Shown: one piece after another, positions 1-38,019 of the stretch
Layout: every line of letters begins with the position of its first letter
How positions within the stretch are numbered: the stretch's first letter is position 1
IMG/VR virus record: IMGVR_UViG_3300032883_000150
Location: 1-38,019 of that record
DNA from: a virus
DNA length: 38,019 nt
Reading direction: 5' to 3' (one strand)
Notes under the pieces: model-generated
The model's input: the letters and a program-made list of their open reading frames with translations, nothing else
Databases searched by the model: none
What the model was told of the DNA's origin: nothing
Position numbers and translations under genes: made by a program

Positions 1-271
1 CATCCCTGGCAGCAACCCCGGCAGCATCCCAGGCAGCATCCCCGGCAGCATCCCTGGCAGCATCCCCGGCAGCATCCCCGGCAGCATCCCTGGCAGCAAC
101 CCCGGCAGCATCCCAGGCAGCATCCCCGGCAGCATCCCTGGCAGCATCCCTGGCAGCATCCCAGGCAGCATCCCCGGCAGCATCCCTGGCAGCAACCCCG
201 GCAGCATCCCAGGCAGCATCCCTGGCAGCAGCCCTGGCAGCATCCCTGGCAGCAACCCCGGCAGCAACCCA
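1..271. repeat. 12-nt tandem array (partial unit + 22 units), coding
   Basis: catccct followed by 22 head-to-tail copies of GGCAGCATCCCT. Variants occur only at unit positions 8 and 12. Array ends at 271 (ggttctccc follows). Confidence 0.95.
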
Positions 272-679
272 GGTTCTCCCGTAGGAGACATGCCACTCAG
301 GCAGCGGTTCGCCATGACAATCCAGATAGTGGATGGATTTGATTTCCTGAATGAAGTCCTCAACTGCTGCGAGGTCCAGTTTCCAGAGCGTCTGTGTCAG
401 CGCCTTGCGCCACTCCCGCCAGACCAATGCCTCCCACTTCTTCGGCGCGTCGGAATACCATGCCGGTAATGTCCCTGGTTCATCGACCTTGAACACCCAG
501 TCCGCCTTCTTCCTGGAGAATATGTCCTTCGGCGCGACCTCCAACCTGACGAAGTCGCGGTCTATCAGTCTGTCATCCAATATGCCGTGCTCGGCCAGTA
601 TCTCCTCGTGGCTGCTGTTTTTCGGCGACCAAAGCACCTTGCCGTCGCGTACTAGAATACAACTCCAAAAATTACACAT
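1..679 (-). CDS. Tetrapeptide-repeat protein, N-terminal part (136-aa globular domain + repeats); continues across the window junction
   Basis: ATG 679-677 has AAGGAG about 8 nt upstream and overlaps the TAA (674-672) of the upstream gene. My translation MCNFWSCILVRDGKVLWSPKNSSHEEILAEHGILDDRLIDRDFVRLEVAPKDIF...LPEWHVSYGRTW runs without stops into the array, in the frame (R/G/W)(D/V)AA. Not in the ORF track because it runs off the window edge. Confidence 0.8.
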   Translation of the reverse strand, partial: MCNFWSCILVRDGKVLWSPKNSSHEEILAEHGILDDRLIDRDFVRLEVAPKDIFSRKKADWVFKVDEPGTLPAWYSDAPKKWEALVWREWRKALTQTLWKLDLAAVEDFIQEIKSIHYLDCHGEPLPEWHVSYGRTWVAAGVAARDAARAAARDAAWDAAGVAARDAAGDAAWDAARDAARDAAGDAAWDAAGVAARDAAGDAAGDAARDAAGDAAWDAAGVAARD

Positions 680-962
680 GATTACGAGTCTCCTTGCGTG
701 CCTCCCTGGCATATTCACATTCTCCGGCCGCCTGCATGATCTGCTTGATGTCGGCGAGTTCTGACTCGATGTAGACTAGGGCATTCTTCGCTTCCATGGA
801 TGTCGGCAAACTCGAAATGCTCATGGTCTTTCCCGTATCCGAAGAGCCGGTAACGGTCCATCCCTCGGCTTGGTTTAGCATCGCGATCGCGCGCTGCAAG
901 CCCTCATCCACCTTCGCGAGCCTGGACGCGAGCGCACGGATATCCTTCTTGCTAAGCGTCAT
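672..962 (-). CDS. Hypothetical protein, helical/coiled-coil-like (96 aa)
   Basis: Internal ATG of ORF 672..1001 at 962, preceded by GGAGGTG + 5 nt. ATGA overlap with the stop of the upstream mini-gene. Confidence 0.65.
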   Translation of the reverse strand: MTLSKKDIRALASRLAKVDEGLQRAIAMLNQAEGWTVTGSSDTGKTMSISSLPTSMEAKNALVYIESELADIKQIMQAAGECEYAREARKETRNHV

Positions 963-1084
963 GTTTGCACCTCCGTCAGGTCCGCCCCGCACTGAGGACA
1001 CTTCCCAACGAAGTTCACGATCGGTTCATCGCATTCGGGGCAACGGGTCAACAGAGCGGCAAGGTCCTCCAGAAACGAGTTCAT
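959..1084 (-). CDS. Zinc-ribbon mini-protein (41 aa; CPEC...CPQC)
   Basis: My translation is MNSFLEDLAALLTRCPECDEPIVNFVGKCPQCGADLTEVQT. ATGA overlaps at both ends (1081-1084 and 959-962). Too short for the ORF track. Confidence 0.6.
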   Translation of the reverse strand: MNSFLEDLAALLTRCPECDEPIVNFVGKCPQCGADLTEVQT

Positions 1085-5037: not shown

Positions 5038-8000
5038 TCAACTCGCTTTCACCGTATATTCGCAGATTATCCTTTGCGTCTTCCATTTCGGGAATTGTTC
5101 CGCCGTCCTTAAAGCATACTGCGTGACCGCGCTTCCGCCCGTCGCCGCCGCATAGAGTTCGATATGAGTTATGACATCCGTGCCGTCGATCGTGTACCCA
5201 TTGTCCATCTCGAACTCGGCATGGTAGGAGATCGTGTTGTACCCGCCGCTTGAATACGAGGCGGAGGGGAACTTGGTGCATAGGACGCGGGTGCTGCCAG
5301 TTATTGCCACCCCACTGGCATTGCAGAGTTGCATGTAGTATGTGCCATCGTGGACGGCGTTCTCCCAGCAGCTGAAGAAATAATGGCCTTGCAGGTCCTC
5401 CGGGCTGGTGAACGATTCCGATTTCTCCGACCTCCCGACGGTCTTCGTGAGCCAATTGACCAGAAGACTGTCAGTGTTGTTGACGGTGATCTCCGTCGAA
5501 TCCTCCCGCACTACGATGCCCGTCACTTTCATTTTGAGGGCGCTTATGCCCAACTTGGCGTAATTCAGGGTGATGATGCGCCCACTGCCGTAGTATTTGC
5601 TAGATGTCAACAGGCGCATGAGCTCCGGGTAGATACCGGATACCGTGATCTGACCTTCCCAGATGTCCCTCGATACCGAATCGAGGTATCTGAACGCGGC
5701 ATCGTTCACATCCGCGAGCGTCTTCAGGTTGTCGTCGAATATCTGCTCCACGACTGGGAACTTGCACTTGACGCGGAAGCTGTCCGCCTTGCCCCTGTCG
5801 TCCCGTGCGGCCACCAATGGATAGCCGAATGCGTCCTTGCCCACGACGATGACGCCGCTCGGCCGGTCGCCCGCCTTCTTCGTCAGGCTGCAACCGGTTA
5901 TGCGCAGCTCCTCGTCCGTGGCCGACGAATCGCTGAAGGTCGCGACCGAGGCGTCGCTCAGAGCGTACCGATGTCCCGCCTTGATGTAGTCTATCCCGCC
6001 CAGGCGGTAGTGCCCGATCGCGTGTTGGTATCCCGAATAGGTCCCGCTCGTCTCGAACAGGTCGCTAAGTTCGCGCAGGCATTCGCCCAAGGACTTGCCC
6101 TTGGTGCGGTAAAGGGGCAGGGTGCGGTCGCAATCCGTCGATACCGACGCCGTTACGTCCGGATCCAATCCGATAAGGCTGGTGAACGCCTCTTCCAGCG
6201 TCCTTGTGCCATAGTAATAGTGCAGCAGGCAGCGCTTGTTGACATATGCCTCGTCCTGCATGCCGGCGACGGCGTTGAAGAACTTGGCCTGTTTCATGCC
6301 GGAGGGGCGCTTGTAGATGTAGATCTTGTCCGCCGCCTCATCGACGGCATAGTCCCCTGGAGGCACGTCGACGTACTCGGCCTGATGGATGCTCGATAAC
6401 AGGACGTGGTCCGTGACCGCGACCCATGCGGCACCATTCCAGTATTTGTATTCGGTCACCTCGTAGCGCGGCGCATCCTCTATATCGACGTACTGGTCCG
6501 TCGCGCTCGGCTCGTTGAGGTAGATGTAGTAGGGTCTGCCGACGACCAGTTCCAGCGGTTCGTCGAACCAGTAGGTCCAGGGCCAATACCACGGAGAGCC
6601 GGTCGTGCCGCCGTCCACGCCTATCGTTCCCTCAAGCAGCGGCGCAGTGGTGTCCGGGTTGCCGCTCGAATTGCAGGGCAGTATCTTGAATTGAACATCG
6701 GGCGGTGAATGCACCAGGCCGGGGCTGGAGAGACCGACGCCGCACATCAATGGCTTGGTCGCATAGAACTTCTGCGCTATGGCCGCCTGTTTAATATTGT
6801 ATGTGCTATCCCCTGAGTCGCCCAGGTCTATGCACTCATCGTTGCTTGCCACCTGAAGCGAGACCAATGGCTGCAATATTCCAGCGTCTGTTATCCCCGT
6901 TATCTCGTATCGGTTGTTGGCATCTACCCAGGCCAGGTCCTTCTTGACCGAGTCGCGGTAGTTCTTGTAGACCGTCTTGCCTATCTTCTGGTTCTCGAAC
7001 CATTGAAGCCAATCGCAAGCCTCCACGGTAAGGATGCCATCGCTGCCTTCGCTCATTTTCTGGATCGCGCCGTCGAAGACCCGCGTCTTCTCCCCGGTCA
7101 AAGTCGGATAGAGATAATACCGGACCGAATCGCCCTCATCCAACGCCTGCGCCACGCCGTCGCTCCATCCGGTGAAACTGGAACTGAGAAGGTTATCGGC
7201 GGCGACCGTAGTGGCATTGTCGAGCTTGAAGACGACCTTGCGCGGATGGTTCTCCGTATGATGGAACTCGCGGCCCATGATGCGCGAATCGTTGGAGTTG
7301 TCGGTATATTTGATGAACGGTCCAGTGTCCATATATGTGATGACCAGTCTCGGTCGATGCCCTTCCAGTGTGGCAGTTCCTAGATATGTTTCGACGTAGT
7401 TCGTGCCGCCTACCCCCGGGGCAGTGTTATCGACGTCGCCTTTCATTCTCAGATAGAAGGCGTTCCATCCTCCCGGGGTTATATTGACGGCCGGGATGGT
7501 GAAATCATTGTATATCCCATTCGTGAAACTGGTGACCGAGGCAACGGCGGCACCGATGCGCGTCTTGACGTAATCGGCATCGACCGCTGGCCTTGATGGG
7601 TAACTGTAAACTGGAACGCACACGCTCAACCCACGCTGCGGAGGTCCGTCATCGAACGCCGTGCCGACGATATACAATCCCAGAGTCGCCGAGATGATCG
7701 TCGCATCCGCCGGGATGGCGCTCAGGTCGAAGTGGATGGCCCCCCTGTAGATGTAATAGTGTGTTCCGCCGTTCACGATGCCAGAGCAGTGAATTAGATG
7801 CGAATAGACATCGCCGATGTCCTGGGAAGGGGCGGTCGCGGCGTCCCTCGCTCCGGTGAAGGTCGTTTCGGCGGTGCTGCTCAGGCGCCTGTCGTCAGCG
7901 CCGCTGTATGTCGTGAGGACGGTCGCCGGTATGTAGGTGATGACCAACCTCGGCCGGTGCGTCTGCGATGTCGCCGTGCCGAGATACGCGCCCATCTGGT

Positions 8001-8565
8001 TGTAGTGATTCGTGCCGGATGTGGGGGCGGTATTGTCAACGTCCCCCTTTATCCGCAAATAGAAAGGGTTCTGCGCGCCCGCAACGAGGTTCCCCACCGG
8101 GATGACGAAATCGTTGTATGCGTTGGCCGTGAAACTGGTTGTCGTGGCGATGGCCGCGCCTATGCGCGTCCTGTCGTAGTCGCCGGTGACTGGCGGCTGG
8201 GATGGGTATCCGGCCTCCGCGGCGCAAATGCTCATCCCGGTCTGCGGCGCGCCATCGTCCCATCGGTTGTTGTTCGATACGAATAGGCTTAGAACGGCAG
8301 AGAGTATGGTAGAACCGGCGGGAATGGAGGAGAGGTCGAACCAGATGGCCGCGCGGTACATGATGAAATTTAAAGAGGTATTCCATGAGTTGTGCAATAA
8401 CTCATCCGCGACGTTGCCGACGTTGACGACCCCTCCTGTCGCATCGTCGCGCGCTCCCGCGAAGGTCGCGTTCGTCGATGTGAGTTGGCGGTCGTCGGCG
8501 CCGCTGTAGATCGTCGCCGTGGCCGTATCGTGGCTTATCAAAACCTCGAATTGGGCGACTGGCAT
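5038..8565 (-). CDS. Large distal tail / baseplate protein (1175 aa) with two tandem N-terminal 200-aa beta-sandwich (DNRLRE/CBM96-like) domains
   Basis: Lies between the Dit-position gene and the fibre. Residues about 12-212 and 213-412 are a duplication (YSGADDRxL...FDLSxIPA...SAxL...HRPRLVITY at a 200-aa offset). Confidence 0.75.
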   Translation of the reverse strand: MPVAQFEVLISHDTATATIYSGADDRQLTSTNATFAGARDDATGGVVNVGNVADELLHNSWNTSLNFIMYRAAIWFDLSSIPAGSTILSAVLSLFVSNNNRWDDGAPQTGMSICAAEAGYPSQPPVTGDYDRTRIGAAIATTTSFTANAYNDFVIPVGNLVAGAQNPFYLRIKGDVDNTAPTSGTNHYNQMGAYLGTATSQTHRPRLVITYIPATVLTTYSGADDRRLSSTAETTFTGARDAATAPSQDIGDVYSHLIHCSGIVNGGTHYYIYRGAIHFDLSAIPADATIISATLGLYIVGTAFDDGPPQRGLSVCVPVYSYPSRPAVDADYVKTRIGAAVASVTSFTNGIYNDFTIPAVNITPGGWNAFYLRMKGDVDNTAPGVGGTNYVETYLGTATLEGHRPRLVITYMDTGPFIKYTDNSNDSRIMGREFHHTENHPRKVVFKLDNATTVAADNLLSSSFTGWSDGVAQALDEGDSVRYYLYPTLTGEKTRVFDGAIQKMSEGSDGILTVEACDWLQWFENQKIGKTVYKNYRDSVKKDLAWVDANNRYEITGITDAGILQPLVSLQVASNDECIDLGDSGDSTYNIKQAAIAQKFYATKPLMCGVGLSSPGLVHSPPDVQFKILPCNSSGNPDTTAPLLEGTIGVDGGTTGSPWYWPWTYWFDEPLELVVGRPYYIYLNEPSATDQYVDIEDAPRYEVTEYKYWNGAAWVAVTDHVLLSSIHQAEYVDVPPGDYAVDEAADKIYIYKRPSGMKQAKFFNAVAGMQDEAYVNKRCLLHYYYGTRTLEEAFTSLIGLDPDVTASVSTDCDRTLPLYRTKGKSLGECLRELSDLFETSGTYSGYQHAIGHYRLGGIDYIKAGHRYALSDASVATFSDSSATDEELRITGCSLTKKAGDRPSGVIVVGKDAFGYPLVAARDDRGKADSFRVKCKFPVVEQIFDDNLKTLADVNDAAFRYLDSVSRDIWEGQITVSGIYPELMRLLTSSKYYGSGRIITLNYAKLGISALKMKVTGIVVREDSTEITVNNTDSLLVNWLTKTVGRSEKSESFTSPEDLQGHYFFSCWENAVHDGTYYMQLCNASGVAITGSTRVLCTKFPSASYSSGGYNTISYHAEFEMDNGYTIDGTDVITHIELYAAATGGSAVTQYALRTAEQFPKWKTQRIICEYTVKAS

Positions 8566-11224: not shown

Positions 11225-12175
11225 TTACGCTATCGTCAGTCCGTTGAAGATCATCTTCACGGTTTCCTCGTTCAGGTCTTGCTTCAGTTCCGGCAGATCG
11301 TCGGCCACGAATATGCCGCCAGCCAGCGTAACGGTTTCATCGTCGATCGGGATTGTCAGCGCCGTGACCGCCGAGTTCGCCAACTTCGCGGCGGTATAGG
11401 TTTCGTTCTTTGCTGGCAACGTCATCTCGAAGATGATCTGGCGTTTTCCTTCGGAGATGTCGATCGCGGCTAACGGATATTTTACCGCGTCGTTTCCGGT
11501 CTTGACGCCCGGTTCGCGCTGTAAGTTGTTCCTTACGGTCAGCGACCACTTCGTCGGATGGACGTTCGTTAATCCACCGGCGCCGATGTTGATCTGGAGA
11601 ATGCCTTTCCACGTTAGGATTGCGGTAGTTACTATCGTTGGATCGGCTCCGATGACGATGCTTTGGAACGCGGCATAGGTCTTGGTCGTATTGGCTTCAA
11701 CGTATTGCGCGAGTATCTCGGCATCGAACATTATGGCCTTGCCCGGCGCGTCCGCGGAGATCTTCAACTCGTCGATCATGCAACCGTTGTATAGATTATA
11801 ATAACTGGTCGCTCCTTGCGTCTTTCCTACTTCTGCGGTGAATGAACCGAGCCTTCCGTATGTGGTCGTTCCATCCTGGATCCCACTTGTCGCGCCGAAG
11901 GCATAGAGGGCGAAGAACTTTGTCCAGTCGTAGGCAGATGAAACGGCTTGCGCCTTCCCCGAGTAGGAGAATCCGGCTTCGTATGGACCGCGCGAAACGC
12001 TATTGAAACCACGCGAGCCGGTCACGAATTCTTCCTCGACGTTGAAATTGACCTTCGGCTTGATGCTGACCGGCACTCCGGTATAGGTCAGGGCCGTTGT
12101 CAAACTCGTCCCGTATGTCGATTCCGCGCTGAAATAGAGCCGCCTTACCTCGCCCGTCATGTATGTGTTTGCCAT
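11225..12175 (-). CDS. Major tail tube protein
   Basis: 316 aa, beta-rich. Canonical position between neck proteins and the chaperone/tape-measure genes. Confidence 0.65.
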   Translation of the reverse strand: MANTYMTGEVRRLYFSAESTYGTSLTTALTYTGVPVSIKPKVNFNVEEEFVTGSRGFNSVSRGPYEAGFSYSGKAQAVSSAYDWTKFFALYAFGATSGIQDGTTTYGRLGSFTAEVGKTQGATSYYNLYNGCMIDELKISADAPGKAIMFDAEILAQYVEANTTKTYAAFQSIVIGADPTIVTTAILTWKGILQINIGAGGLTNVHPTKWSLTVRNNLQREPGVKTGNDAVKYPLAAIDISEGKRQIIFEMTLPAKNETYTAAKLANSAVTALTIPIDDETVTLAGGIFVADDLPELKQDLNEETVKMIFNGLTIA

Positions 12176-16198: not shown

Positions 16199-17347
16199 TC
16201 ACGCCAGGTCGCGTATCTTGAAGTGCGGAGCGAAGGCCAATGCGGTCAGTTCCCCGAACAGGTCCAGGCTGTGCCTCTCTTCGAAGGCGTCGTGCAGTAT
16301 GGCGTTCGATATCGGGCTCGTCAGGTGCCTTACCGGGCTTGCGACGCGGTATTCCACGTGGTCCAGGCTGATGCCGTAGATACGGCCCGCTCCGTCCGCG
16401 ACCACCTGTGGGCTCTTGAAGATCGGGATGTCGTTGTAGGATGCGACCCTGCTCCCGGTCTCCCTGCCCTTCTCGCTCTGCACGCCGTTCACTCCGAAGG
16501 ACACGCTGATGTAGTCGTTGAACCGCTGGTTGCCGCTCACGAGAGCCGCCCAATCGGCCAATGTGTCGGACTTTGTCAGCATCGCCGCCCTCTCGGGCTT
16601 CATGCCGTAGTCCTCGGCCAACTGCATCTTCTCGTCGATCAGGTTCACGGTCAATGCGCGGTCCACCGCAGATGTTCCGTAGCCGACCTGAGCATCGTAG
16701 GTGTAGGTAGAGTCCCTGTCCAGGGTGTACCAGTCCACATCATTCGCGGTGTAGGATGCGTTCGCGCTGTCAGAGTTGTTGTCAACTTCGTATCCGCCTG
16801 CGATCATGCGGTCGAGCGATTCGGGCAATGCGTCCGCGGTCGTCCCGTTCTGGGTCAGGAGCGCCGTGTCGATGCACCTCGCGAAGAAGTCCATCGCATA
16901 CTGCGCCTGCCAGTTCGATTCTCCCCCGGCCTTGCCGTCCTCGGCCGCCGACTTGACCGTTGCCAATTCGGTGATGTCCCAGGTATAGTTCAGGCGCTTC
17001 AGGGTGATGTTGTAGGTCGCCAGGTCGGGCTTGTCGGTAGCTACCAATGCCCCGGTTTCTGCCACTCCGGCCGCTGCGGTCGCGTGCGCGGTGACGATGC
17101 GCACCCCGGACTTCGCGGTCTGGAAGTCTATCTTCGGCAATATCTTCCAAAGGACGCTGTTCTGGTCCAAATTCATAAAGGTTCTTGGACCGAGCATCGC
17201 CGTGGATACCGCCGTCGCATTGATCACGGGGTCGTCCTTCATGAGCAGGTCGCTCATGCGGCCCACGTCCACTCCTAGGGCGGAAAACTGCTTGCGATAG
17301 GCAGCTTCCACCATATCGTTGTAGGTCTTTACGCGGTTGTCGTTCAT
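16199..17347 (-). CDS. Major capsid protein (HK97-fold, by position and size)
   Basis: 382 aa, immediately after the prohead protease-scaffold. ATG 17347 preceded by GAGGCG (the ORF track starts at TTG 17359). Confidence 0.75.
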   Translation of the reverse strand: MNDNRVKTYNDMVEAAYRKQFSALGVDVGRMSDLLMKDDPVINATAVSTAMLGPRTFMNLDQNSVLWKILPKIDFQTAKSGVRIVTAHATAAAGVAETGALVATDKPDLATYNITLKRLNYTWDITELATVKSAAEDGKAGGESNWQAQYAMDFFARCIDTALLTQNGTTADALPESLDRMIAGGYEVDNNSDSANASYTANDVDWYTLDRDSTYTYDAQVGYGTSAVDRALTVNLIDEKMQLAEDYGMKPERAAMLTKSDTLADWAALVSGNQRFNDYISVSFGVNGVQSEKGRETGSRVASYNDIPIFKSPQVVADGAGRIYGISLDHVEYRVASPVRHLTSPISNAILHDAFEERHSLDLFGELTALAFAPHFKIRDLA

Positions 17348-17355
17348 GGTTCGCC

Positions 17356-18621
17356 TCAATTGTCGGGCACCAACGGTGCCTTCTTCTCGTTCAGGTCGCG
17401 CGCCATTTCCATTACAGACACTCCCGCGCTCTGACCCGCTAGCGGGCCCGAACTCTGAACGACGCCCTTGCGGTCGGGCTGTTGCCCCATCGCTACGGCG
17501 GGTGCCTGGGCTGCAGGCGCTGCCTCAGCCTTCGCGTTCAGTTTCTTCTCAGCCTCGATCGCCTCCATCTTCATTGTCAGCTCCCTGTTCTTGGCCTCGA
17601 CCTCTTCGTACTTCGCCTTGTAGTCGATGGCCGGTGCTGCCGGTTGCGCTGGCGGCGTTGGCGGCTGGGTCGGTGAAGCCGCGGCTTGCACCACGGCTGC
17701 GACTGGCTCCTTCTGTTCCTTCTGCATGTCTGGCTTCTTCTCTTCTGGCATCTTCAGTTCCCCTTTTCCTTCTATCTGGTGCTTGATGGCTCCACAGTAT
17801 GCCTCTGGATTCTCCTTGTCGTGGTTCTTCGAGACGCAGTCCGCGAAGTCGGCGTAATCGCCCATCGGCTTCATGAGCAGATCGGGCGGTGGTATGACGG
17901 ACCACCCTTTCTTCTTCAGGGATGCGGCGATGACGCTGTCGTTCAGAACGATCTCTTTCTCATCGCTGCCCTTGTTTACCCCATCCCCGTCAGGTATAAT
18001 GCTGCCCTCTGAGGCGGCCTCTGACGCTTTGGGGTAATCAACCTTTCGGATTTCGGGCAAACAGCCCTTTATCGCCATGATGAGGCTGCCCGTGTTCATC
18101 GGGTTGAAGACCAGGCCGACGTGATACAGTTCCAGGTCGTCTATCTTGTTGAAGCACATGCCCGACTGGCTGCAATAGCGGACTTTCGAGAGAGCCGAGC
18201 CGCCTATTGAGAAAGCTCGTATCGCGTCCTCGCCCTTGTAATCTGGATTGCGGCCTTTGACTATCCCGTCCATCGCGGCCTTGCCAGCCTTGGACTTGTT
18301 TATCTTGCCCTGTATCCAGAACTTGCGGGGGTTGCTGTCCATCAGGAAGGCCGCATCCGTCACCTTGCCGACGTTGATTCCGTCCTTGTGCCCGTAGGCG
18401 AGAGGCAGATCCACGCCGTCATCTTTCAGGCGGGCGAGGGCCTTCTGGAACGCCTCCATCGTTATCATGTCGCCCGCTTTGTCAATCCCTTCGATGCTCG
18501 CGAAGCCGCTGACAATGCCCGTTAATGGGTCGGCGCTGTCTATCTCGAAGTCGTATTGCCAGTTGCCTTTGTTCACGAATGGACGATTTGGGTCCGCCGA
18601 TTCAAGTTCCCATCCTGTCAT
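17356..18621 (-). CDS. Prohead protease (HK97 gp4/S78-like) fused to a coiled-coil scaffold domain
   Basis: N-half has GFASIEGIDKAGDMITMEAF...LPLAYGHK...AFSIGG. C-half is Lys/Glu/Ala/Pro-rich coiled coil. Strong SD AAAGGAGGA. Confidence 0.8.
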   Translation of the reverse strand: MTGWELESADPNRPFVNKGNWQYDFEIDSADPLTGIVSGFASIEGIDKAGDMITMEAFQKALARLKDDGVDLPLAYGHKDGINVGKVTDAAFLMDSNPRKFWIQGKINKSKAGKAAMDGIVKGRNPDYKGEDAIRAFSIGGSALSKVRYCSQSGMCFNKIDDLELYHVGLVFNPMNTGSLIMAIKGCLPEIRKVDYPKASEAASEGSIIPDGDGVNKGSDEKEIVLNDSVIAASLKKKGWSVIPPPDLLMKPMGDYADFADCVSKNHDKENPEAYCGAIKHQIEGKGELKMPEEKKPDMQKEQKEPVAAVVQAAASPTQPPTPPAQPAAPAIDYKAKYEEVEAKNRELTMKMEAIEAEKKLNAKAEAAPAAQAPAVAMGQQPDRKGVVQSSGPLAGQSAGVSVMEMARDLNEKKAPLVPDN

Positions 18622-18905: not shown

Positions 18906-19367
18906 TCACAACCCTCCCACGTTCTTCTCGAAGATGGCGCTGGCTATCGCATCCGCTTGCTGCCTTGCCACCTCCACGCCCCCGCGCAGGAATGCCCGCG
19001 GAGGCATGCCCATCTGAATGACGTATTTCGCGAAGTGCTCGCCCTCGCCGTCGGTCCAATGAAGCGCCTTCTTGGTCTTCGGCGTGATAAGTATTGGCGC
19101 GCCTTCTGGCCCGTAGATTCCTGTGCCGAACTCGACGTACGACGCATAGGGTGCGGCATACCAAATGGTCGAACGCATCGGAACGGTCACATCATTGCCC
19201 GACCTCAGTTTGAGATTGCCGGACTTGACCGGACAATAGACCTGCGACCAATAGTAAGCGGTATTGCCGATCTCATGGGTGGTCTCGTTCAGAATGTCCG
19301 GGATCTTCGAGCGCAAGGCATCGAGGTGGGCGGCGAAGTCCTTGATATTGACCTCGATCCGGACCAT
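18906..19367 (-). CDS. HK97 gp10-family head-tail joining protein
   Basis: Motif VKSGNLK...YAAPYASYVEFGTG. ATG 19367 shares one base with the portal stop (TGATG). Confidence 0.7.
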   Translation of the reverse strand: MVRIEVNIKDFAAHLDALRSKIPDILNETTHEIGNTAYYWSQVYCPVKSGNLKLRSGNDVTVPMRSTIWYAAPYASYVEFGTGIYGPEGAPILITPKTKKALHWTDGEGEHFAKYVIQMGMPPRAFLRGGVEVARQQADAIASAIFEKNVGGL

Positions 19368-21673
19368 CAGACGCCTCCGAGCATCGGCCTGAGCACGAAC
19401 GTACATCGTTCATTCGGATGCAGACTGCCGCCATTCGACTTGGTCATCAGTTCATCCAAGGTGTATGGGCCATTGGCAGCGAATTCCATGCAACCGTCGC
19501 AAGCATCGGGCGCCGGAATCCAATCGTAGAGGGCCGTCCCCATTGGGTCTGCGGTCTTGTATGATTGCGCCCTGCCCTGGTTGGCTATGTAGGTCGCCTC
19601 GCTCCTTGCTATCCTTGCTAGTTTCCATGACTCGCCGTCGCTGACCTTGCGCATCTCATCGAGGGCTAGATGCCAGTCCGCCTTGCCCGGCTCGGTGAAG
19701 GTCTTCGCTATCGCATCGCTGAACGCCCTTTGCTGCGCATTGCCGAACTCCGGCAGGACCGATTGGACGCCCGGCCACTTGTTGAACAGGTAGTCGACCG
19801 CCGCATCCTCCCTTGCGGTCCATTCCACGCCCACGCCGCCCGCCTTGAATCCATCCGAATAGAGGCGGTCGACCGAGATTCGTGCCGATTTCACGAGTTC
19901 CTGTCGTAATTCTGCGACGATTTGGTCAGCTTCCTTCTGCAACCTCGCCGCGGTGGGGTCCTTCAAGGCCGCCATGCGTGCAATGCCATTGTCAATTATG
20001 GCCCTGTAAGTGTCATCCAGATTACGGTAGAACTCCAACTCGTCCTTGCGTAGCCCCGCGATCGCGGCGGCCGGGTCGATGTTGCGCGGACCCGGTGCCG
20101 ACTTCATGAGCAACACTAGATCGTCATATCGTGCGGCCTTGCCCGCCATTTTTGGGTTGCCCTCGAAGGCATTGGCGGGTGCCTGCCCTGGCGCTGGCCC
20201 GTTCACATTCGCGGACAAAGTGGGGGGTTGTGAAAACCCCGATTCAGGGGGGAAGCCTCCTGCAGAAGGGATCACCGCCGATTTCTCGGTCGGATAGACC
20301 CGCCCGTCCTCGTCTAACGCGGTATCGTAGCCTGCGTTCCTCCACGCCGCGGCCGCGCTCGCCCATGCCCCGGAGGTCTGAGCTTCCATCAGCTCGTCCT
20401 CCTCCTCGCCCGGTGGGAAGCCCATGTACCAGTTGACGACGTTGAACGCCTCGAACAGCGCCGAGTTGGTATAGGTCTCCGCCAGGCATATCTGTATCGC
20501 GGCGATGAAGTTGGCATTCGTTGCGCGCTGCATGTCAGGTTGCTGCCCCGACTTGCCCGACTCGATTATGCCGCCGACCACGGGCGCGACGCCGAAGGTG
20601 CGGTGTATCTCCTCGATATAGTTCTTGTACCAATCGAGCGACTGCATCTCGACCGGGGTGTCGAGCATCTTGATGAATTGGACGTCCTTGTTCTCAGGCA
20701 GGCCGACCCATGCCATCGCGTGCGGGTTCAACGCGACGCCCTTCTCCACTCCCTGGGCGAGGCGCTTGACGCTCTCATTCGGCGTGCCCTTGAACACCGT
20801 CAGCCCCTGCGGCGTGCGCTGGTCGCGGTAACTGTCATTGAACCATTCGTTCATGAGCAGGATGTTGCCGACCGGGAGCATTAGGCTGAGAAGCAGCGGC
20901 GTGCCGTTCAGGCGCGCCGCGGCGTGGAACAGGTGCCCGTGGATCATCTCGTTCTCGGCCCATCGGGCGGTGATACGTCCTGCGGATTCAATGAACTGAA
21001 CATAGGCCGTTTCCTTGAGCGGCATCCTATGGTCCGGGCATTTCATCCCGTGCCGTTGCGCCTCCTCTGCGGTGAACTCGCGGTCGAGCGGGCAGGAATC
21101 GCAGAAGTAGGTGTCGTCGCCGATGTTGCCCTTCTTGTCGTAGCGGATGGCGATGTTCCCGGCATCCTCCGCGTAGAGCGCCATCGGCATGCCGTCGTCC
21201 CCGTAGGCGATGGAAGTGAAGAAGTCGTCATACGTCAGGAGGTCGGTCACGTTGGCCTTGAGGATGTGCTGGAAGCTGCGCCGGTTCTTCCTGTCCGGCA
21301 TGAGGAGGAGTTGTTCGAGCGCCCTGTATTCGTTACGCTTCGGGTCGTCTGGTCCTATCTCCCCGTCGCCTTCGGGGTCCTTGGGGTAGAAGTCGAAGCA
21401 TCGGTCGTAGTATTTCGTGGTCCTCGTGACCTCGCGCCCTATGATCTCGATGCACGAGCGAACTGGGGCGCACCGTTCGACCATGCTCCTGAGGATGTAA
21501 GTCGGGACGCGCCTCTCCGCCTGCCCCGGCTGTTGCGGGCTGGACACCGCGTAGGCGAATATCTCCTCGGCGTAGGACTTCTGAGATGGGGCGTCCTTGC
21601 CGACCGATCTCTCATCGGCCTTCATGAGGACATCGAGCGCCCTCTGAACCCTTGTGCGAAGCGTCATGGACAA
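19367..21673 (-). CDS. Portal protein fused to an SPP1 gp7 / Mu F-like head morphogenesis domain
   Basis: 768 aa. C-terminus WKLARIARSEATYIANQGRAQSY...YDWIPAPDACDGCMEFAANGPYTLDEL...HPNERCTF is the MuF signature. Portal-sized N-part follows TerL. Confidence 0.85.
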   Translation of the reverse strand: MSMTLRTRVQRALDVLMKADERSVGKDAPSQKSYAEEIFAYAVSSPQQPGQAERRVPTYILRSMVERCAPVRSCIEIIGREVTRTTKYYDRCFDFYPKDPEGDGEIGPDDPKRNEYRALEQLLLMPDRKNRRSFQHILKANVTDLLTYDDFFTSIAYGDDGMPMALYAEDAGNIAIRYDKKGNIGDDTYFCDSCPLDREFTAEEAQRHGMKCPDHRMPLKETAYVQFIESAGRITARWAENEMIHGHLFHAAARLNGTPLLLSLMLPVGNILLMNEWFNDSYRDQRTPQGLTVFKGTPNESVKRLAQGVEKGVALNPHAMAWVGLPENKDVQFIKMLDTPVEMQSLDWYKNYIEEIHRTFGVAPVVGGIIESGKSGQQPDMQRATNANFIAAIQICLAETYTNSALFEAFNVVNWYMGFPPGEEEDELMEAQTSGAWASAAAAWRNAGYDTALDEDGRVYPTEKSAVIPSAGGFPPESGFSQPPTLSANVNGPAPGQAPANAFEGNPKMAGKAARYDDLVLLMKSAPGPRNIDPAAAIAGLRKDELEFYRNLDDTYRAIIDNGIARMAALKDPTAARLQKEADQIVAELRQELVKSARISVDRLYSDGFKAGGVGVEWTAREDAAVDYLFNKWPGVQSVLPEFGNAQQRAFSDAIAKTFTEPGKADWHLALDEMRKVSDGESWKLARIARSEATYIANQGRAQSYKTADPMGTALYDWIPAPDACDGCMEFAANGPYTLDELMTKSNGGSLHPNERCTFVLRPMLGGV

Positions 21674-22409: not shown

Positions 22410-22631
22410 TCATTTCCTGACCGCCCTCTGAAACGCCGGGAGATACGCAACGAAGATGAGAAGCATCGAAGCCAGCATCGCCGCCTCCAACGCGTTCTCG
22501 TGAATGGTATCGAACGCGAGGACCACCCGCCCGGTCGTCAGCAGGGCGATCAACGAGAACGCGAACAGCAACCCAGTGAACCCCACCGCCGTCAGGTATG
22601 CCGCCACGAATACCCGTTCCTGATGTCTCAT
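22410..22631 (-). CDS. Small two-TM membrane protein (73 aa)
   Basis: ATG 22631 overlaps the TerL stop (ATGA). Hydrophobic stretches VFVAAYLTAVGFTGLLFAFSLIALL and AAMLASMLLIFVAYL. Confidence 0.6.
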   Translation of the reverse strand: MRHQERVFVAAYLTAVGFTGLLFAFSLIALLTTGRVVLAFDTIHENALEAAMLASMLLIFVAYLPAFQRAVRK

Positions 22632-24013
22632 CTGCCCCACCAACCGCCGACCCGCCTCGCTGGTGCGGCATCATGCACGAAGGCGACGCCCAGGTCGCTC
22701 TCGCCCCCATCATAGAGTGCGAGCGCTTGCGCCCAGAACTCGTCAGCGTGGCCTATCTCCGCCTGCCTAGTGCTGTCGAACTTGAGGTAGTTGGTCTCGG
22801 AATACTTGCGCTGGATGCTGTTGATGGCCCTTACCAGGACGGGGTCGTCGGGCATCTCTAGGTTCTTCTTCTCGTAGCGCGTCTTGAGCGAGCCGACCAT
22901 GCTTGCCTTGAGCTCGTTGGTCATGTGATAGCCCCAGACGAAGCCGAACTTCTCCCTCAACGCCTCGTCTATCTCCTTGTTGGCCGTGTTGTCGATGTTA
23001 AAGCGTAGCATGTTCGGCTGGGCGAGGATGTAGTTCAGGCGGTCCAGTTGCTCCAGATAGGGGACCCCGGCCCAGACGTACTTGCAGCGCAGCACCGCCT
23101 TTTCCCCTTGGATCTCGTAGATATGCACCGCGCTCAGGTCCCGGTCGCGCGCCACGTCGTAGCCGCCGACGCATGCCTTGCCCTTCAACTGCTCCACGTC
23201 CAGATACGACAGTTCCGGGTTCACGCACGACATGATGAGTTGCAGGGGGAACTCGCTGTTCGCCTCGCCGATGAATTCGTTCTGGAACTCCTGCCTGAAA
23301 CTCAGTTCGTCGTAGGCGCCGCTCGCTCGGATCGCCTGCACATCCAGGTCGGGGCAGGCGGTGTAGGGGATCAGGACCTTGTCGAACTTGCTGTCCGTGC
23401 GCGGGTTCACCCAGATGTCATGGAATAGATTTGCTTCGCCGAACGGGGTGCTTATCCCGATGAACTGCCCGCCCCTGCTGATGCTCGGGGTGATGGCCTC
23501 CATTACGTCCGCGTCCGTCCGGTTCAGGAAGTGCGCGAACTCGTCGGTGATTATCAGGTCCGCCGGGTAGCCCCTGATGGTGCTGGCGCTGTTCGGGAAT
23601 GCCCAGACGCCCCCGCCCTCCCTGAACGTCAGCTCGTGCTTGTTGTCGTCCTTCACTGTGGGCTGGATCATCTCCGGCCAATACTGCCAGGCGCGCCAGA
23701 ACTCATCGACATAGGCTTTGAAGTGGATGCTCTGCCTCTCGCTCGGGGATACCACTAACACCTTGTGATTGTGCAGTATCGCCCGGAACAGCGCGTAGGA
23801 ACCTTCGAAACTCGATATGCCTATCTGCCTGCTCTTGTTGATGAGAGTGAACTGGCTCTTCAGCCCTAGGAGGTCGGCTTGATATGGATAGAGTTCGTGG
23901 CGGCCCGTGCGCCTGAACATCTCGTTGAACAGGGCGACCAATGCAGAGTCTACCATCTGACGCGCCGCCTTAACGGGATGAGGCGCAATCTCGGATTGTG
24001 GCTGCTCCACCAA
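22628..24013 (-). CDS. terL: Terminase large subunit
   Basis: YPYQ, P-loop-like KSRQIGIS, Walker B DLIITDEFAHF, ISTP, and nuclease-half GGYDVARDRD ... HADEFWA. The start could be ATG 23956 instead of TTG 24013. Confidence 0.9.
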   Translation of the reverse strand: MVEQPQSEIAPHPVKAARQMVDSALVALFNEMFRRTGRHELYPYQADLLGLKSQFTLINKSRQIGISSFEGSYALFRAILHNHKVLVVSPSERQSIHFKAYVDEFWRAWQYWPEMIQPTVKDDNKHELTFREGGGVWAFPNSASTIRGYPADLIITDEFAHFLNRTDADVMEAITPSISRGGQFIGISTPFGEANLFHDIWVNPRTDSKFDKVLIPYTACPDLDVQAIRASGAYDELSFRQEFQNEFIGEANSEFPLQLIMSCVNPELSYLDVEQLKGKACVGGYDVARDRDLSAVHIYEIQGEKAVLRCKYVWAGVPYLEQLDRLNYILAQPNMLRFNIDNTANKEIDEALREKFGFVWGYHMTNELKASMVGSLKTRYEKKNLEMPDDPVLVRAINSIQRKYSETNYLKFDSTRQAEIGHADEFWAQALALYDGGESDLGVAFVHDAAPARRVGGWWGR

Positions 24014-27818: not shown

Positions 27819-28333
27819 CACTCATCACCTATGACGTTGAGTAGGGCGAATTCCCCGAACAATTCCTTGGCCTTTGCATTGTAAATCCTTGCAGCCTCGA
27901 TCTCTGAATCAAATCGACCGAGATAATGGCGAACGTTCGCGCACTGTATTTCGGCCTGCCATTTGTCACTTGGGGGATAGAATGACACGCCTTTGAACCT
28001 AGATGTATGTGAAACGATCCTACGTTGGTTCGCTAGATTCTGAGACTTCGAGCATATACGAAGATTCTCTCGTCTATTATCGAGTGTATTGCCATTGATG
28101 TGGTCTGTTTCCCGCCCCTTCGGAGTACCAATGATTTCTCGGTGCATGAGTTTAGATCCGTGCTTTCCTCTCATATCATTTGGCGTTGTTCGAGCTGCGT
28201 AGGGATATCTTGATTGGTCTCGTTTACTCCCAAAAAAGAGGACATGCCAGGTAAATTGTCTTGCCCATTCATAGTCCTCATCAGAAACTATCGCAATATA
28301 TCCTCTATTTACTGGTACTATCCTTGCCATCAT
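27818..28333 (-). CDS. HNH endonuclease fused to an AP2 DNA-binding domain (homing-endonuclease type)
   Basis: DHINGNTLDNRRENLRICS (HNH_3-type) + SRFKGVSF...KWQAEI...YLGRFDSEIEAARIYNAKAKELFGEFA (AP2). Gene is visibly AT-richer than its neighbours. Confidence 0.85.
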   Translation of the reverse strand: MMARIVPVNRGYIAIVSDEDYEWARQFTWHVLFFGSKRDQSRYPYAARTTPNDMRGKHGSKLMHREIIGTPKGRETDHINGNTLDNRRENLRICSKSQNLANQRRIVSHTSRFKGVSFYPPSDKWQAEIQCANVRHYLGRFDSEIEAARIYNAKAKELFGEFALLNVIGDE

Positions 28334-30383: not shown

Positions 30384-30387
30384 CCTT

Positions 30388-31068: not shown

Positions 31069-31082
31069 CCTTTCACTCCCAG

Positions 31083-31134
31083 TTATTACATTATTACGCG
31101 GTTTTCTGGAACGTGGTATGTAATAATGTAATAA
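31083..31134. repeat. Perfect 15-bp AT-rich inverted repeat with 22-nt spacer
   Basis: TTATTACATTATTAC (31083-31097) and GTAATAATGTAATAA (31120-31134) are exact reverse complements. Confidence 0.9.
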
Positions 31135-31136
31135 TT

Positions 31137-31496: not shown

Positions 31497-31499
31497 CTG

Positions 31500-31592: not shown

Positions 31593-31593
31593 C

Positions 31594-37214: not shown

Positions 37215-37604
37215 CTAAGATTCTATCTTCTTCGTGAATCTCTCGACCCAGATGTCAAACTCTCCGTCGGGCAGAGGATATTCGTCCCCATCCGCCCGTA
37301 GCCGTCTCTGCACGAGCGCCTTCACTTGTCCGAGTCCTTTTGCCTCTTCCAATTTGTTCTCGCGCACCTTGACTGACCAAGAGCCGCACGTGAACTCGAG
37401 GACGGTAAACTCCTCGGAATCCACATCGATGGGGTAGTCGACCTCCTTGCCTTCTAGGTCCTGCTGGGTCATCTTCTCCCGGACCGCTTTCGTCACCATC
37501 TCGGGAAGCTTCTTGAACTCGTCCATCGGGATTGGCTTGCTCTCGACACGGTTACCCTCGGCATCGGTATGGCCTATGGTCACGGTTGTTTCCTTATCTT
37601 TCAA
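37215..37604 (-). CDS. Hypothetical protein (129 aa)
   Basis: TTG 37604 overlaps the TGA of the upstream mini-gene (TTGA) and follows GGGGGTGAGG. The ORF-track start 37787 would overlap two other genes. Confidence 0.55.
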   Translation of the reverse strand: MKDKETTVTIGHTDAEGNRVESKPIPMDEFKKLPEMVTKAVREKMTQQDLEGKEVDYPIDVDSEEFTVLEFTCGSWSVKVRENKLEEAKGLGQVKALVQRRLRADGDEYPLPDGEFDIWVERFTKKIES

Positions 37605-37756
37605 TTCCTCACCCCCTGCCCGCGTGGGCGGTAGACTATCCCACACTCCTTGCAACGCAGCCGTCCGGCGTATGGGCCGGTCATCTGCTGCTTGCGTCTG
37701 CGGGAATGACATAGCGGACATTTGGGGAAGCCGATGAGGGACAGGAGGTCGGTCAT
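37601..37756 (-). CDS. Zinc-ribbon mini-protein (51 aa; CPLC...CKEC)
   Basis: MTDLLSLIGFPKCPLCHSRRRKQQMTGPYAGRLRCKECGIVYRPRGQGVRN. AAGGAGG + 6 nt precedes ATG 37756, with ATGA overlap on the repeat-protein stop. Confidence 0.55.
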   Translation of the reverse strand: MTDLLSLIGFPKCPLCHSRRRKQQMTGPYAGRLRCKECGIVYRPRGQGVRN

Positions 37757-38019
37757 TTGCGAGCCTCCTTCTCCATTCCATAGACATACAAGTCGCCGTT
37801 CACATCGCAGAGCAGCGCGTATCCACGCCTCCAGACCTCCATGCGCGCCTCGGCGTGCTTGCGGTGTGTCTCGCCGATGGGTGGTGCCAGAAGCACTCTC
37901 GCGTAAAGCGCAGCATCCCTGGCAGCAACCCCGGCAGCAACCCCGGCAGCATCCCTGGCAGCAACCCCGGCAGCATCCCAGGCAGCATCCCCGGCAGCAT
38001 CCCTGGCAGCAACCCCGGC
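37753..38019 (-). CDS. Tetrapeptide-repeat protein, C-terminal part (repeats + 51-aa tail)
   Basis: The array frame (R/G/W)(D/V)AA continues into LYARVLLAPPIGETHRKHAEARMEVWRRGYALLCDVNGDLYVYGMEKEARK, then TGA 37755-37753. Confidence 0.8.
   Translation of the reverse strand, partial: AGVAARDAAGDAAWDAAGVAARDAAGVAAGVAARDAALYARVLLAPPIGETHRKHAEARMEVWRRGYALLCDVNGDLYVYGMEKEARK
37910..38019. repeat. Same 12-nt tandem array at the other window end
   Basis: One degenerate unit, 8 full units (37921-38016) and ggc. 37950-38011 is identical to 1-62. Confidence 0.95.

What the first reader, a model, noticed from the sequence alone, without database searches (positions are those of the whole stretch)
1..271. 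In-frame 12-nt tandem array whose only variable positions are two non-synonymous sites
There are 22 complete GGCAGCATCCCT units here, plus 8 full and one degenerate unit at 37910-38019. Only unit position 8 (T/A, once G) and position 12 (T/C/A) ever vary. On the coding (minus) strand these are codon-1 position 1 (AGG/GGG/TGG = Arg/Gly/Trp) and codon-2 position 2 (GAT/GTT/GCT = Asp/Val/Ala). The two Ala codons (GCT GCC) and every wobble position are invariant. So more than 30 copies show zero synonymous differences but frequent amino-acid differences. A 48-nt super-unit (plus-strand order atccct-aacccc-atccca-atcccc) recurs at 1-43, 80-127 and 37945-37992. This suggests a recently expanding or contracting array (slippage or gene conversion). 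Because the unit is a multiple of 3, the array changes protein length without frameshifting. It could be a length-variable spacer or ligand protein, and the DNA could also act as a cis element (iteron-like).
Basis: seen in the sequence. Interest (0 to 1): 0.75.

Follow-up and report, generated by a model that had tools for sequence, protein, structure and literature searches.

The report
Fast-evolving four-residue repeat phage protein
The 12-base repeat is the middle of one phage gene, cut in two because the circular genome assembly broke inside it; it encodes about 30 near-identical four-amino-acid units that differ only at two residues, and it belongs to a large, unstudied family of phage proteins whose repeat arrays change length and order very quickly.

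Summary
Window 1-271 and 37909-38019 hold 12-nt units that vary only at two non-synonymous sites. The one exception is a synonymous change in the terminal unit.

The two blocks are one array. The last 22 nt of the window equal the first 22 nt, and joining them keeps the frame. The joined minus-strand gene encodes 307 aa:
- an N-terminal module with invariant Cys2/His24/Glu47;
- about 30 (R/G/W)(D/V/A)-Ala-Ala units;
- a 50-aa C-terminal cap.

The window is a tailed-phage genome. The protein belongs to a large metagenome-only family with no Pfam, PDB or literature match. In 23 related arrays, units are identical at synonymous sites within an array, but the synonymous codons differ between lineages, which indicates concerted evolution. 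Variation sits mainly in one di-residue. Six protein pairs with 96-100% identical flanks differ about 1.5- to 3-fold in unit number.

AlphaFold predicts the array as a long two-helix hairpin. Best reading: a slippage- or recombination-driven coding minisatellite that sets the length and surface of a helical stalk in an early phage protein.

DGR-type mutagenesis and an iteron role are not supported. Unit number and order in this window are unreliable, and the function is unknown.

The parts
1..271 (-). Upstream (5') part of the coding tandem array in gene orientation: 22 full 12-nt units at 8-271 plus a 7-nt partial unit at 1-7. It encodes (R/G/W)(D/V/A)AA units 1-22.
37909..38019 (-). Downstream (3') part of the same array in gene orientation: 8 full units, a terminal degenerate unit at 37909-37920 (AGGGATGCTGCG, synonymous GCG), and 3 nt.
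37998..38019 (.). 22 nt identical to window 1-22. This is the terminal overlap that closes the circle in register. It lies inside the repeat, so it is weak evidence for the exact junction.
272..679 (-). Codes for the N-terminal part of the protein (136 aa, MCNFWSC...). The start ATG is at 679-677 and GGAG lies about 10 nt upstream. The conserved core is about 95 aa, with Cys2, His24 and Glu47 invariant in 41 diverse relatives.
37753..37908 (-). Codes for the C-terminal cap (LYARVLL...HRKHAEARMEVWRRGYALLCDVNGDLYVYG...), with the stop TGA at 37755-37753. This cap is conserved in all xxAA-type relatives.
37601..37756 (-). Downstream 51-aa Cys-rich (CPLC...CKEC) ORF. Its ATG overlaps the stop of the repeat gene (ATGA). 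Context only.
672..1001 (-). Upstream 109-aa ORF whose stop overlaps the start region of the repeat gene. Homologues lie two genes downstream of the repeat gene in related contigs L025 and L026. Context only.

Best explanation
**Shown.**
- The array is the central segment of a single minus-strand gene of a roughly 38-kb tailed-phage genome. The short-read assembly broke inside the array.
- The gene encodes a three-part protein: an N-terminal alpha/beta module that starts at residue 1 with invariant Cys2/His24/Glu47, about 26-30 or more four-residue units (R/G/W)(D/V/A)-Ala-Ala, and a conserved cap of about 50 aa.
- The array behaves as a coding minisatellite. Units are identical at all synonymous sites within an array. 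Related phages have arrays homogenised on other synonymous codons. Unit number and order differ between otherwise near-identical genes.

**Inferred.**
- Units and blocks of units are gained, lost and recombined by replication slippage or unequal recombination. This happens fast enough to erase neutral differences (concerted evolution).
- Selection keeps Ala-Ala as the packing stripe and keeps a mixture of R/W/G and D/A/V at the two outward-facing positions.
- Crossovers between the two variable sites, 4 nt apart, make new di-residue combinations.
- The array folds as a long antiparallel two-helix hairpin with the N- and C-terminal parts together at its base. Unit gain or loss therefore lengthens or shortens the stalk and re-patterns its surface without disturbing the end domains.

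**More speculative.** The protein is an early-expressed host-interaction protein (takeover or anti-defence). The repeat surface would be the fast-changing binding face and the Cys-His-Glu module the effector.
For: **Frame and junction.**

**Phage context.**
- Phage markers are terminase, portal, protease, major head and minor tail.
- Homologues sit in replication/modification modules, next to DnaB, ERF and SSB; PDDEXK, AAA_24 and a helicase; or Dam and C5 methylases.

**Family.**
- 1688 hits share the same N-module/array/cap layout.
- The N-module has 633 clusters at E<=1e-3 among 1.84 billion representatives, and the match almost always starts at residue 1-2.

**DNA tabulation.**
- WIN (this window's gene), L025 and L026 all use NGG GNT GCT GCC, with 30, 24 and 18 units. 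L027/L028 use NGG GNC GCC GCA and L001 uses GCG GCA.
- Across 23 arrays there are 17 synonymous and 145 non-synonymous allele events against 24% synonymous sites, binomial p = 1e-5.
- Two assemblies of one phage (L027, L028) agree on all 19 units except 1 nt.
- Six pairs with identical flanks differ in unit number. P0012 equals P0006 minus one internal block of 8 units.

**Residue alphabet over 127 arrays and 2053 units.**
- Position 1 is R 33%, W 31%, G 24%.
- Position 2 is D 54%, A 22%.
- Positions 3 and 4 are Ala 95% and 94%.
- Unit order is near random.

**Structure.**
- AF2 for the window protein (pLDDT 84.5) gives helices 137-184 and 192-240.
- AF2 for the 11-unit relative P0003 gives helices 137-155 and 167-187, with the turn at mid-array.
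Against: - Unit number and order in this window come from contig ends in a short-read assembly and cannot be trusted. Some of the length differences between relatives could be assembly collapse.
- AF2 confidence is only 54-70 in the middle of the array. A monomer prediction cannot separate a hairpin from an intermolecular coiled coil. A strict 4-residue period does not match the 3.6-residue helical period over long distances.
- The allele events counted are not phylogenetically independent.
- The restricted alphabet (exactly the residues reachable from NGG and GNY by one substitution) could reflect structural tolerance rather than adaptive diversification.
- There is no experimental or annotated relative, no PDB, Pfam, PADLOC or cultured-phage match, and no conserved partner gene. 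The functional part is a guess from gene position and architecture.
Confidence: 0.6

Rival explanations
1. Assembly artefact. The apparent homogeneity, the unit count and the super-units are products of collapsing or arbitrarily threading a repeat in a de Bruijn graph, so there is no biological hyper-homogeneous array.
For: - The array sits at both contig ends and the overlap is only 22 nt, with a 70-nt/1-mismatch alternative.
- 6 of 24 related IMG/VR loci also run off the contig inside their arrays.
- Some database homologues show frame slips inside arrays: P0079, P0258, P0260.
Against: - The same pattern is seen in arrays lying fully inside contigs (L025, L026, L027, L030-L032).
- Two separate assemblies of one phage agree on it (L027, L028).
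- Over 20 independent lineages with different codons show it.
- Collapse cannot create an in-frame junction with conserved domains on both sides.
Confidence: 0.12
2. Targeted hypermutation of the DGR type. The unit AGG GAT GCT GCC has exactly two adenines, and these are the two variable sites, as expected for adenine-specific mutagenic retrohoming.
For: In this window the two variable sites coincide exactly with the only two adenines of the RDAA unit.
Against: - No reverse transcriptase was found. Pfam and PHROG scans of a subset of the larger ORFs gave none, and the only YxDD-like motif in a minus-strand ORF lies in one whose only functional match is a weak glycosyltransferase hit.
- No second, non-tandem copy exists that could serve as a template repeat.
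- In relatives, adenines stay invariant: CAG in L002, AGC in L001 and L005.
- In relatives, non-adenine sites vary: TAC/CGC in L001, and T/C/G at position 1 in L024 and L030.
Confidence: 0.03
3. The repeat acts mainly as DNA: iterons or an origin embedded in a gene (as lambda ori lies inside gene O), or a packaging or terminus site. Coding would be secondary.
For: - Homologues lie in replication modules.
- The window ends fall in the array.
- The three closest relatives share the identical 12-nt unit although their flanks have dS 0.6-0.9.
Against: - Across lineages the amino-acid pattern is conserved while the codons change.
- Every sibling array has a unit length that is a multiple of 3, and it lies in frame between conserved domains.
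- There is no AT-rich or inverted-repeat flank.
- Under concerted evolution each array counts as one 4-codon unit. By my estimate from the fraction of identical codons in the flanks, shared wobble bases among three lineages have P of about 0.1-0.3, which is not significant.
- Contig ends inside repeats are expected from short-read assembly.
Confidence: 0.07
4. The genetics are the same (minisatellite turnover), but the variable di-residue is not under diversifying selection. R/W/G and D/A/V/G would simply be the structurally tolerated residues (for example Trp-Arg stacking and small residues), so the array is a passive spacer or self-assembling rod with no recognition role.
For: - The same small alphabet recurs in all 127 arrays.
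- Sibling 8- and 9-residue arrays show the analogous [W/R/Y/H/C][D/G/N/E] pair, typical of stacking ladders and turn positions in solenoids.
- Unit order is near random.
Against: - A passive spacer does not explain why three or four alleles are kept at intermediate frequency at both sites in every lineage while all neutral sites are swept clean.
- A mild excess of W followed by R, and a deficit of WW and RR, suggests some patterning.
Confidence: 0.18

Closest known systems
TAL-effector repeat arrays with repeat-variable di-residues (Xanthomonas TALEs, Ralstonia RipTALs, Burkholderia Bat proteins); comparison from general knowledge
   Same: Both are tandem units that are near-identical at the DNA level, with variation concentrated in two adjacent residues per unit. 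Both evolve by recombination and unit gain or loss, and both break short-read assemblies.
   Different: The unit here is 4 aa, not 33-35 aa. No TALE fold or sequence match was found. There is no evidence of nucleic-acid binding. The host is a phage early region, not a secreted bacterial effector. The di-residue order is near random.
In-frame VNTR / coding minisatellite proteins of bacteria (for example staphylococcal Sdr/Clf Ser-Asp repeats, Ehrlichia VLPT, streptococcal alpha C protein)
   Same: The unit length is a multiple of 3. Copy-number polymorphism between near-identical alleles arises by slippage or unequal recombination. The repeat acts as a length-variable stalk. Weak, sub-threshold family hits to SdrC and VLPT appear for this family.
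   Different: Those are surface proteins with signal peptides and wall anchors. This protein has none and lies among early/replication genes of a phage. Here the variation is confined to a fixed di-residue.
Lambda-type origin iterons inside replication gene O
   Same: Direct repeats lie inside a gene, between an N-terminal and a C-terminal domain, in or near a replication module.
   Different: Lambda has four 19-bp iterons plus an AT-rich region. This array has about 30 units of 12 bp with no AT-rich flank, and the amino-acid pattern is conserved across lineages with different codons.
Diversity-generating retroelement variable regions
   Same: Variation is limited to the first and second codon positions and avoids stops. 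In this window the variable sites are the only adenines of the unit.
   Different: There is no RT and no template repeat. Relatives show invariant adenines and varying non-adenine sites.
Short-period solenoid repeats: pentapeptide-repeat proteins and the 8-residue beta-helix of T4 gp5
   Same: Very short units form a regular rod. Sibling members of this superfamily carry 8-residue units that weakly hit Gp5_trimer_C and ALTTAQ repeat models.
   Different: The xxAA array is predicted to be alpha-helical, not a beta-helix. It gives no Pfam pentapeptide hit.
PHROG families 8332, 18326, 15773 and Pfam DUF7666 proteins
   Same: The PHROG models match the repeat segment (E 2e-8 to 4e-4). DUF7666 proteins share the same xxAA array and C-terminal cap.
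   Different: All of these are of unknown function. The PHROG matches cover only the low-complexity repeat. The window protein has the MCNFWSC module, not DUF7666.

Membership tests
Coding minisatellite (in-frame VNTR) | Unit length is a multiple of 3 and the reading frame is continuous with the flanking coding sequence | tested here: met
   12-nt units; the RDAA frame is continuous with the N- and C-terminal domains after the 22-nt join
Coding minisatellite (in-frame VNTR) | Units are near-identical at the DNA level, including synonymous sites | tested here: met
   0 synonymous differences in 29 of the 30 joined units and 1 in the terminal unit. The same holds in L025, L026 and L027
Coding minisatellite (in-frame VNTR) | Copy-number polymorphism between alleles with near-identical flanks | tested here: met
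   Met in relatives: six pairs with 96-100% identical flanks have 16/8, 22/7, 18/12, 28/17, 15/28 and 13/19 units. It could not be tested for this phage itself because no reads or second copy were available
Unnamed 'MCxF[WF]S' N-module / repeat / cap phage protein superfamily | The N-terminal module starts at residue 1-2 and has invariant Cys2, His24 and Glu47 | tested here: met
Unnamed 'MCxF[WF]S' N-module / repeat / cap phage protein superfamily | xxAA array followed by the cap KHxxHAxxRMxVWxxGYxLxCDVxGxLYVY | tested here: met
Diversity-generating retroelement target | A reverse transcriptase gene in the element | tested here: not met
   No RT appears in Pfam or PHROG scans of a subset of the larger ORFs. 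YxDD-like motifs occur only in two ORFs (one of them on the non-coding plus strand) with no RT match
Diversity-generating retroelement target | A separate template repeat that differs from the variable repeat only at adenines | tested here: not met
   The unit occurs only in the array. Relatives show invariant adenines and variable non-adenine sites
Iterons / replication origin | The repeat DNA sequence, not the encoded peptide, is what is conserved, and an AT-rich unwinding region lies next to it | tested here: not met
   The peptide pattern is conserved with different codons. The flanks are coding sequence and the end bins have 58-59% GC
Iterons / replication origin | Bound by an initiator protein; replication starts there | not testable with these tools
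   Needs EMSA or ChIP and origin mapping
TAL-effector-like repeat proteins | 33-35-aa repeats with the TALE fold | tested here: not met
   4-aa units; no Pfam, PDB or Foldseek match
TAL-effector-like repeat proteins | One unit reads one base or ligand subunit through its variable di-residue | not testable with these tools
   Only the formal analogy (a fixed variable di-residue) is seen
Pfam DUF7666 (PF24703) | Match to the DUF7666 model above the gathering score | tested here: not met
   The window protein gives no hit. Siblings P0065, P0088 and P0048 do hit
Pentapeptide-repeat proteins | 5-residue A(D/N)LXX units; Pfam Pentapeptide match | tested here: not met
   4-residue units, no Pfam match, predicted helical

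The most novel reading that the evidence does not exclude
The superfamily is a modular recognition system. A Cys-His-Glu effector module would be delivered to a periodic target (nucleic acid, polysaccharide or a repeat protein of the host) by an array in which each short unit contributes one variable di-residue ([R/W/G][D/A/V] here, [W/R/Y/H/C][D/G/N/E] in the 8- and 9-residue siblings). Minisatellite recombination would serve as the built-in way to rewrite specificity, making this a phage counterpart of TALE/RVD or VLR-type combinatorial recognition.
Probability: 0.1. Interest if true: 0.85.

Novelty: new variant of a known kind. Interest (0 to 1): 0.6.

Why it matters
**Biology.** If this reading is right, a large and so far unstudied family of phage early proteins uses very short coding minisatellites as rapidly re-sizable, re-patternable structural elements. 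The N-module alone has at least 633 clusters at 50% identity. The family would give a clean natural system for studying concerted evolution combined with maintained amino-acid diversity at fixed positions. It is also a candidate fast-evolving phage-host interface, attached to a possible Cys-His-Glu enzyme that nobody has characterised.

**Practical consequences.**
- These arrays break short-read phage assemblies.
- They can create short terminal overlaps inside a repeat (here 22 nt) that might be taken for true genome termini.
- They leave all six frames open, so gene callers produce spurious or frame-slipped ORFs.

Tried and rejected
- **DGR idea.** The only two adenines of the unit are the two variable sites. 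I rejected the idea after tabulating related arrays and finding no RT or template repeat.
- **DNA-level constraint.** WIN (this window's gene), L025 and L026 share the same wobble bases although their flanks have dS 0.6-0.9. This is not significant, because a homogenised array counts as a single 4-codon unit.
- **Annotation.** Pfam, NCBIfam, PADLOC, a PDB sequence profile (whole protein and N-module), and Foldseek against PDB and BFVD gave nothing informative. PHROGs hit only the repeat segment, in families of unknown function.
- **Cultured phages.** tblastn with three family members gave nothing for two; the third gave only one weak (24% identity, E 2e-4) match over its repeat segment in a Mycobacterium prophage. 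Megablast of a structural-gene segment of the window gave no match.
- **Cellular genomes.** Two scans of 185,579 species genomes found one 3.7-kb contig of a MAG.
- **A second copy of this phage.** An exact flank probe found none in IMG/VR and only the already known relative L026 in JGI metagenomes. Copy-number variation within this phage could therefore not be measured.
- **Literature.** Three full-text searches, including literal repeat strings and 'DUF7666', returned nothing relevant.
- **RNA.** Rfam and tRNA scans of the window were empty.
- **Partner gene.** Neighbouring small Cys-rich ORFs are not homologous between phages.
- **Alternative-frame ORF.** The ORF starting at ATG 292-290 (MSPTGEPGLLPG...) was dismissed, because its peptide is not conserved in relatives with other codons.

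Full report
**1. What is in the sequence**

The window begins and ends inside the same 12-nt tandem repeat.
- At the left end there is a 7-nt partial unit (1-7), followed by 22 full units (8-271).
- At the right end there is a degenerate unit (37909-37920), 8 full units (37921-38016) and 3 nt.
- TRF scores the two blocks 407 and 164-185.
- A two-unit probe with up to 3 mismatches hits 27 times against none in 100 shuffles, and nowhere else in the window.
- On the plus strand only unit positions 8 and 12 vary. The single further difference is G to C at position 1 of the terminal unit.

**2. One gene, split by the assembly**

All six reading frames are open across the array, so only the flanks decide the frame.
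- On the minus strand the RDAA frame runs without a stop from an ATG at 679-677, with GGAG upstream.
- It passes through 136 codons of non-repetitive sequence into the left block.
- It leaves the right block into 51 further codons, ending at TGA 37755-37753.

The last 22 nt of the window equal the first 22 nt. Removing this overlap joins the two blocks in register. Simple concatenation would give a 10-nt junction unit and a frameshift. A 70-nt overlap with one mismatch is the alternative.

The joined product is 307 aa with 30 units, or 26 units with the longer overlap. Because the array lies at contig ends of what is evidently a short-read assembly, the number and order of units are a lower-confidence estimate.

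The rest of the window is a tailed-phage genome. The genes identified are all on the minus strand:
- terminase large subunit at 22628-24013;
- portal at 19367-21673;
- protease at 17356-18621;
- major head protein at 16199-17359;
- minor tail protein at 11225-12175.

There are no tRNA or Rfam hits.

**3. The protein and its family**

The protein has no match in Pfam, NCBIfam or PADLOC. Three PHROGs of unknown function match only the repeat.

A search of 5.8 billion proteins gave 1688 hits. All are metagenomic and 200-330 aa long, and the top hits share one layout:
- an N-terminal module, MC[NKE][FY][WF]S...SSHE...DRDFVRxE...W..KVDE..TLPxW[YF];
- a run of x-x-Ala-Ala units;
- the cap ...KHxxHAxxRMxVWxxGYxLxCDVxGxLYVY.

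Some members replace the N-module by DUF7666.

An exhaustive phmmer search with the N-module found 633 clusters (50% identity) at E<=1e-3. The match nearly always starts at residue 1-2. In 41 diverse N-modules only Cys2, His24 and Glu47 are invariant. This suggests, but does not show, a catalytic triad with an N-terminal cysteine.

No relative has a solved structure by sequence profile or by Foldseek. BFVD returns only uncharacterised phage proteins.

The family is missing or nearly missing from several collections:
- cultured phages;
- 185,579 species genomes, where two scans found a single hit;
- the searchable literature.

**4. The N-module is fused to many kinds of short perfect arrays**

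IMG/VR loci and representative proteins show the same N-module followed by several array types:
- YSAA/RSAA;
- (W/R)(D/G)QL;
- (W/R/G)DSV, with a different cap;
- 8-residue units such as SSTVEAWD or SSSAELYG;
- 9-residue units such as SSQVGEMWE;
- LRR-like units of about 20 residues;
- MORN-like units.

In most of the short-unit (4-, 8- and 9-residue) kinds, variation concentrates in an adjacent pair of the type [W/R/Y/H/C/G][D/G/N/E/A/V]. Six of 24 IMG/VR loci run off the contig inside the array, so these arrays commonly break assemblies.

**5.

I tabulated units for 23 arrays.

| Array | Unit | Units |
|---|---|---|
| WIN (this window's gene) | NGG GNT GCT GCC | 30 |
| L025 | NGG GNT GCT GCC | 24 |
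| L026 | NGG GNT GCT GCC | 18 |
| L027 / L028 | NGG GNC GCC GCA | 19 |
| L001 | [TA/CG]C AGC GCG GCA | 16 |
| L002 | [T/A]GG G[A/G]C CAG CTC | 26 |

- L025 and L026 are 79-80% identical to the window protein over the N-terminal part.
- Within each array the synonymous sites are uniform. Between lineages they differ. This is the signature of concerted evolution.
- Summed over arrays, there are 17 synonymous and 145 non-synonymous allele events, against an expectation of 24% synonymous (p = 1e-5). The events are not fully independent.
- Flanks of WIN, L025 and L026 have dS 0.58-0.92. Their shared wobble bases are not significant once each array is counted as one unit.
- Nearly all combinations of the two variable sites occur among the three close relatives. 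This fits crossovers falling between sites 4 nt apart, or recurrent mutation.

**6. Rapid length change**

Among 119 xxAA arrays in this set the unit number ranges from 5 to 39. Six protein pairs with 96-100% identical flanks differ about 1.5- to 3-fold in unit number. P0012 equals P0006 minus one internal block of 8 units. Assembly collapse may contribute to these differences, but two assemblies of one phage (L027, L028) agree on all 19 units except one base.

**7. Alphabet**

Over 127 arrays and 2053 units:
- position 1 is R 33%, W 31%, G 24%;
- position 2 is D 54%, A 22%, N 6%, G 6%, V 5%;
- positions 3 and 4 are Ala 95% and 94%.

The dominant residues are those encoded by NGG and GNY. Unit order is close to random, with WR 1.22-fold over expectation and WW and RR at 0.87-fold. 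Mean net charge is -0.22 per unit.

**8. Structure**

AF2 with a 59-sequence alignment gives pLDDT 84.5.
- The N-terminal part (1-135) is confident.
- Two long helices, 137-184 and 192-240, are separated by a short break.
- Further helices follow, and the model ends in a C-terminal beta-hairpin.
- Confidence falls to 54-70 in mid-array.

The 11-unit relative P0003 gives the same picture, with helices 137-155 and 167-187 and the turn at mid-array. I read this as a two-helix hairpin whose length scales with unit number. An intermolecular coiled coil cannot be excluded.

**9. Explanations weighed**

The best-supported reading is a slippage- or recombination-driven coding minisatellite that encodes a length-variable Ala-packed helical stalk with a variable exposed di-residue, in a phage early/replication-module protein. 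Homologues lie next to DnaB, ERF and SSB, to PDDEXK, AAA_24 and a helicase, or to DNA methylases.

- **DGR-type mutagenesis.** It is tempting for this window alone, because the variable sites are the only adenines of the unit. It fails on three counts: no RT was found, there is no template repeat, and relatives have invariant adenines and varying non-adenine sites.
- **Iteron or origin role.** It is not supported, because selection is visibly on the peptide.
- **Pure assembly artefact.** It is unlikely given the many independent internal arrays, although the counts in this window are unreliable.
- **Selected diversity or tolerated residues.** This remains open.

The biological function is unknown. 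I favour a host-interaction role on position and architecture only.

**10. Verdict**

The locus is a member of a large uncharacterised phage protein superfamily. Mechanistically it is a new variant of a known kind (coding VNTR with concerted evolution, formally TALE-like). It is of moderate to good interest, mostly because the pattern is family-wide, clean and experimentally approachable.

Noticed in passing
window 1-300 and 37800-38019: All six reading frames are open across the array, so mechanical ORF lists contain spurious ORFs here (for example 290..469 + and 37800..38012 -). An alternative-frame ATG at 292-290 would give MSPTGEPGLLPG(L/M)LPG... . That peptide is not conserved in relatives with other codons.
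   Followed up: partly
window 1-22 and 37998-38019: The 22-nt terminal identity lies inside the tandem repeat. Completeness tools that accept terminal repeats of 20 nt or more might score it as a genuine DTR. Here the genome is probably complete, but the junction, and hence the unit number, is not determined.
   Followed up: partly
proteins P0079, P0258, P0260: Database homologues switch reading frame inside their arrays (for example ...AAGGLLQWMLRGLLRGCCEGCC...) and lose the C-terminal cap. These are either assembly or sequencing errors in the repeat or real frameshifted alleles.
   Followed up: no
window 272-679 (-); alignment A5: The N-module always starts at the first residues of the protein. 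Only Cys2, His24 and Glu47 are invariant in 41 diverse members, which could mean an N-terminal-cysteine catalytic triad. No Pfam or PDB relative was found.
   Followed up: partly
loci L001-L024; proteins P0126-P0261: The same N-module is fused to at least eight different kinds of near-perfect short arrays (4-, 8-, 9-, about 17-20-residue units, LRR-like, MORN-like). Most show a variable aromatic/Arg + Asp/Gly/Asn pair. The 8-residue kind weakly hits T4 gp5 beta-helix and ALTTAQ repeat models.
   Followed up: partly
window 1-271, 37909-38019, minus strand: The coding strand carries a GGG or GGGG tract every 12 nt (NGG followed by GNT), which gives possible G-quadruplex or slippage-prone DNA. 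Most xxAA, xDSV and xxQL arrays share this, but L001 (YSAA/RSAA) does not.
   Followed up: no
window 672-1001 (-) ; L025 3325-3537 ; L026 1181-1387: The ORF just upstream of the repeat gene has homologues (42-47% identity) in two related contigs. There they lie two genes downstream of the repeat gene. Linkage is kept but the order is rearranged.
   Followed up: partly
window 30001-32000: GC drops to 0.49 against 0.56-0.61 elsewhere in the window. This may be a recently acquired segment among the early genes.
   Followed up: no
window 28330-29451 (-): A 373-aa ORF has an N-terminal TrmB/MarR-type winged helix (residues 8-54). It also has a second PadR/MarR-like match near residues 180-244 and a weak PHROG hit to a Ren-like exclusion protein. 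It may be a phage regulator.
   Followed up: no
window 5038-8565 (-): The largest ORF (1175 aa) lies among the tail genes but has no PHROG match and only a sub-threshold, probably spurious Pfam hit (TGFb_propeptide). From size and position it may be a tape-measure protein, but this was not tested.
   Followed up: no
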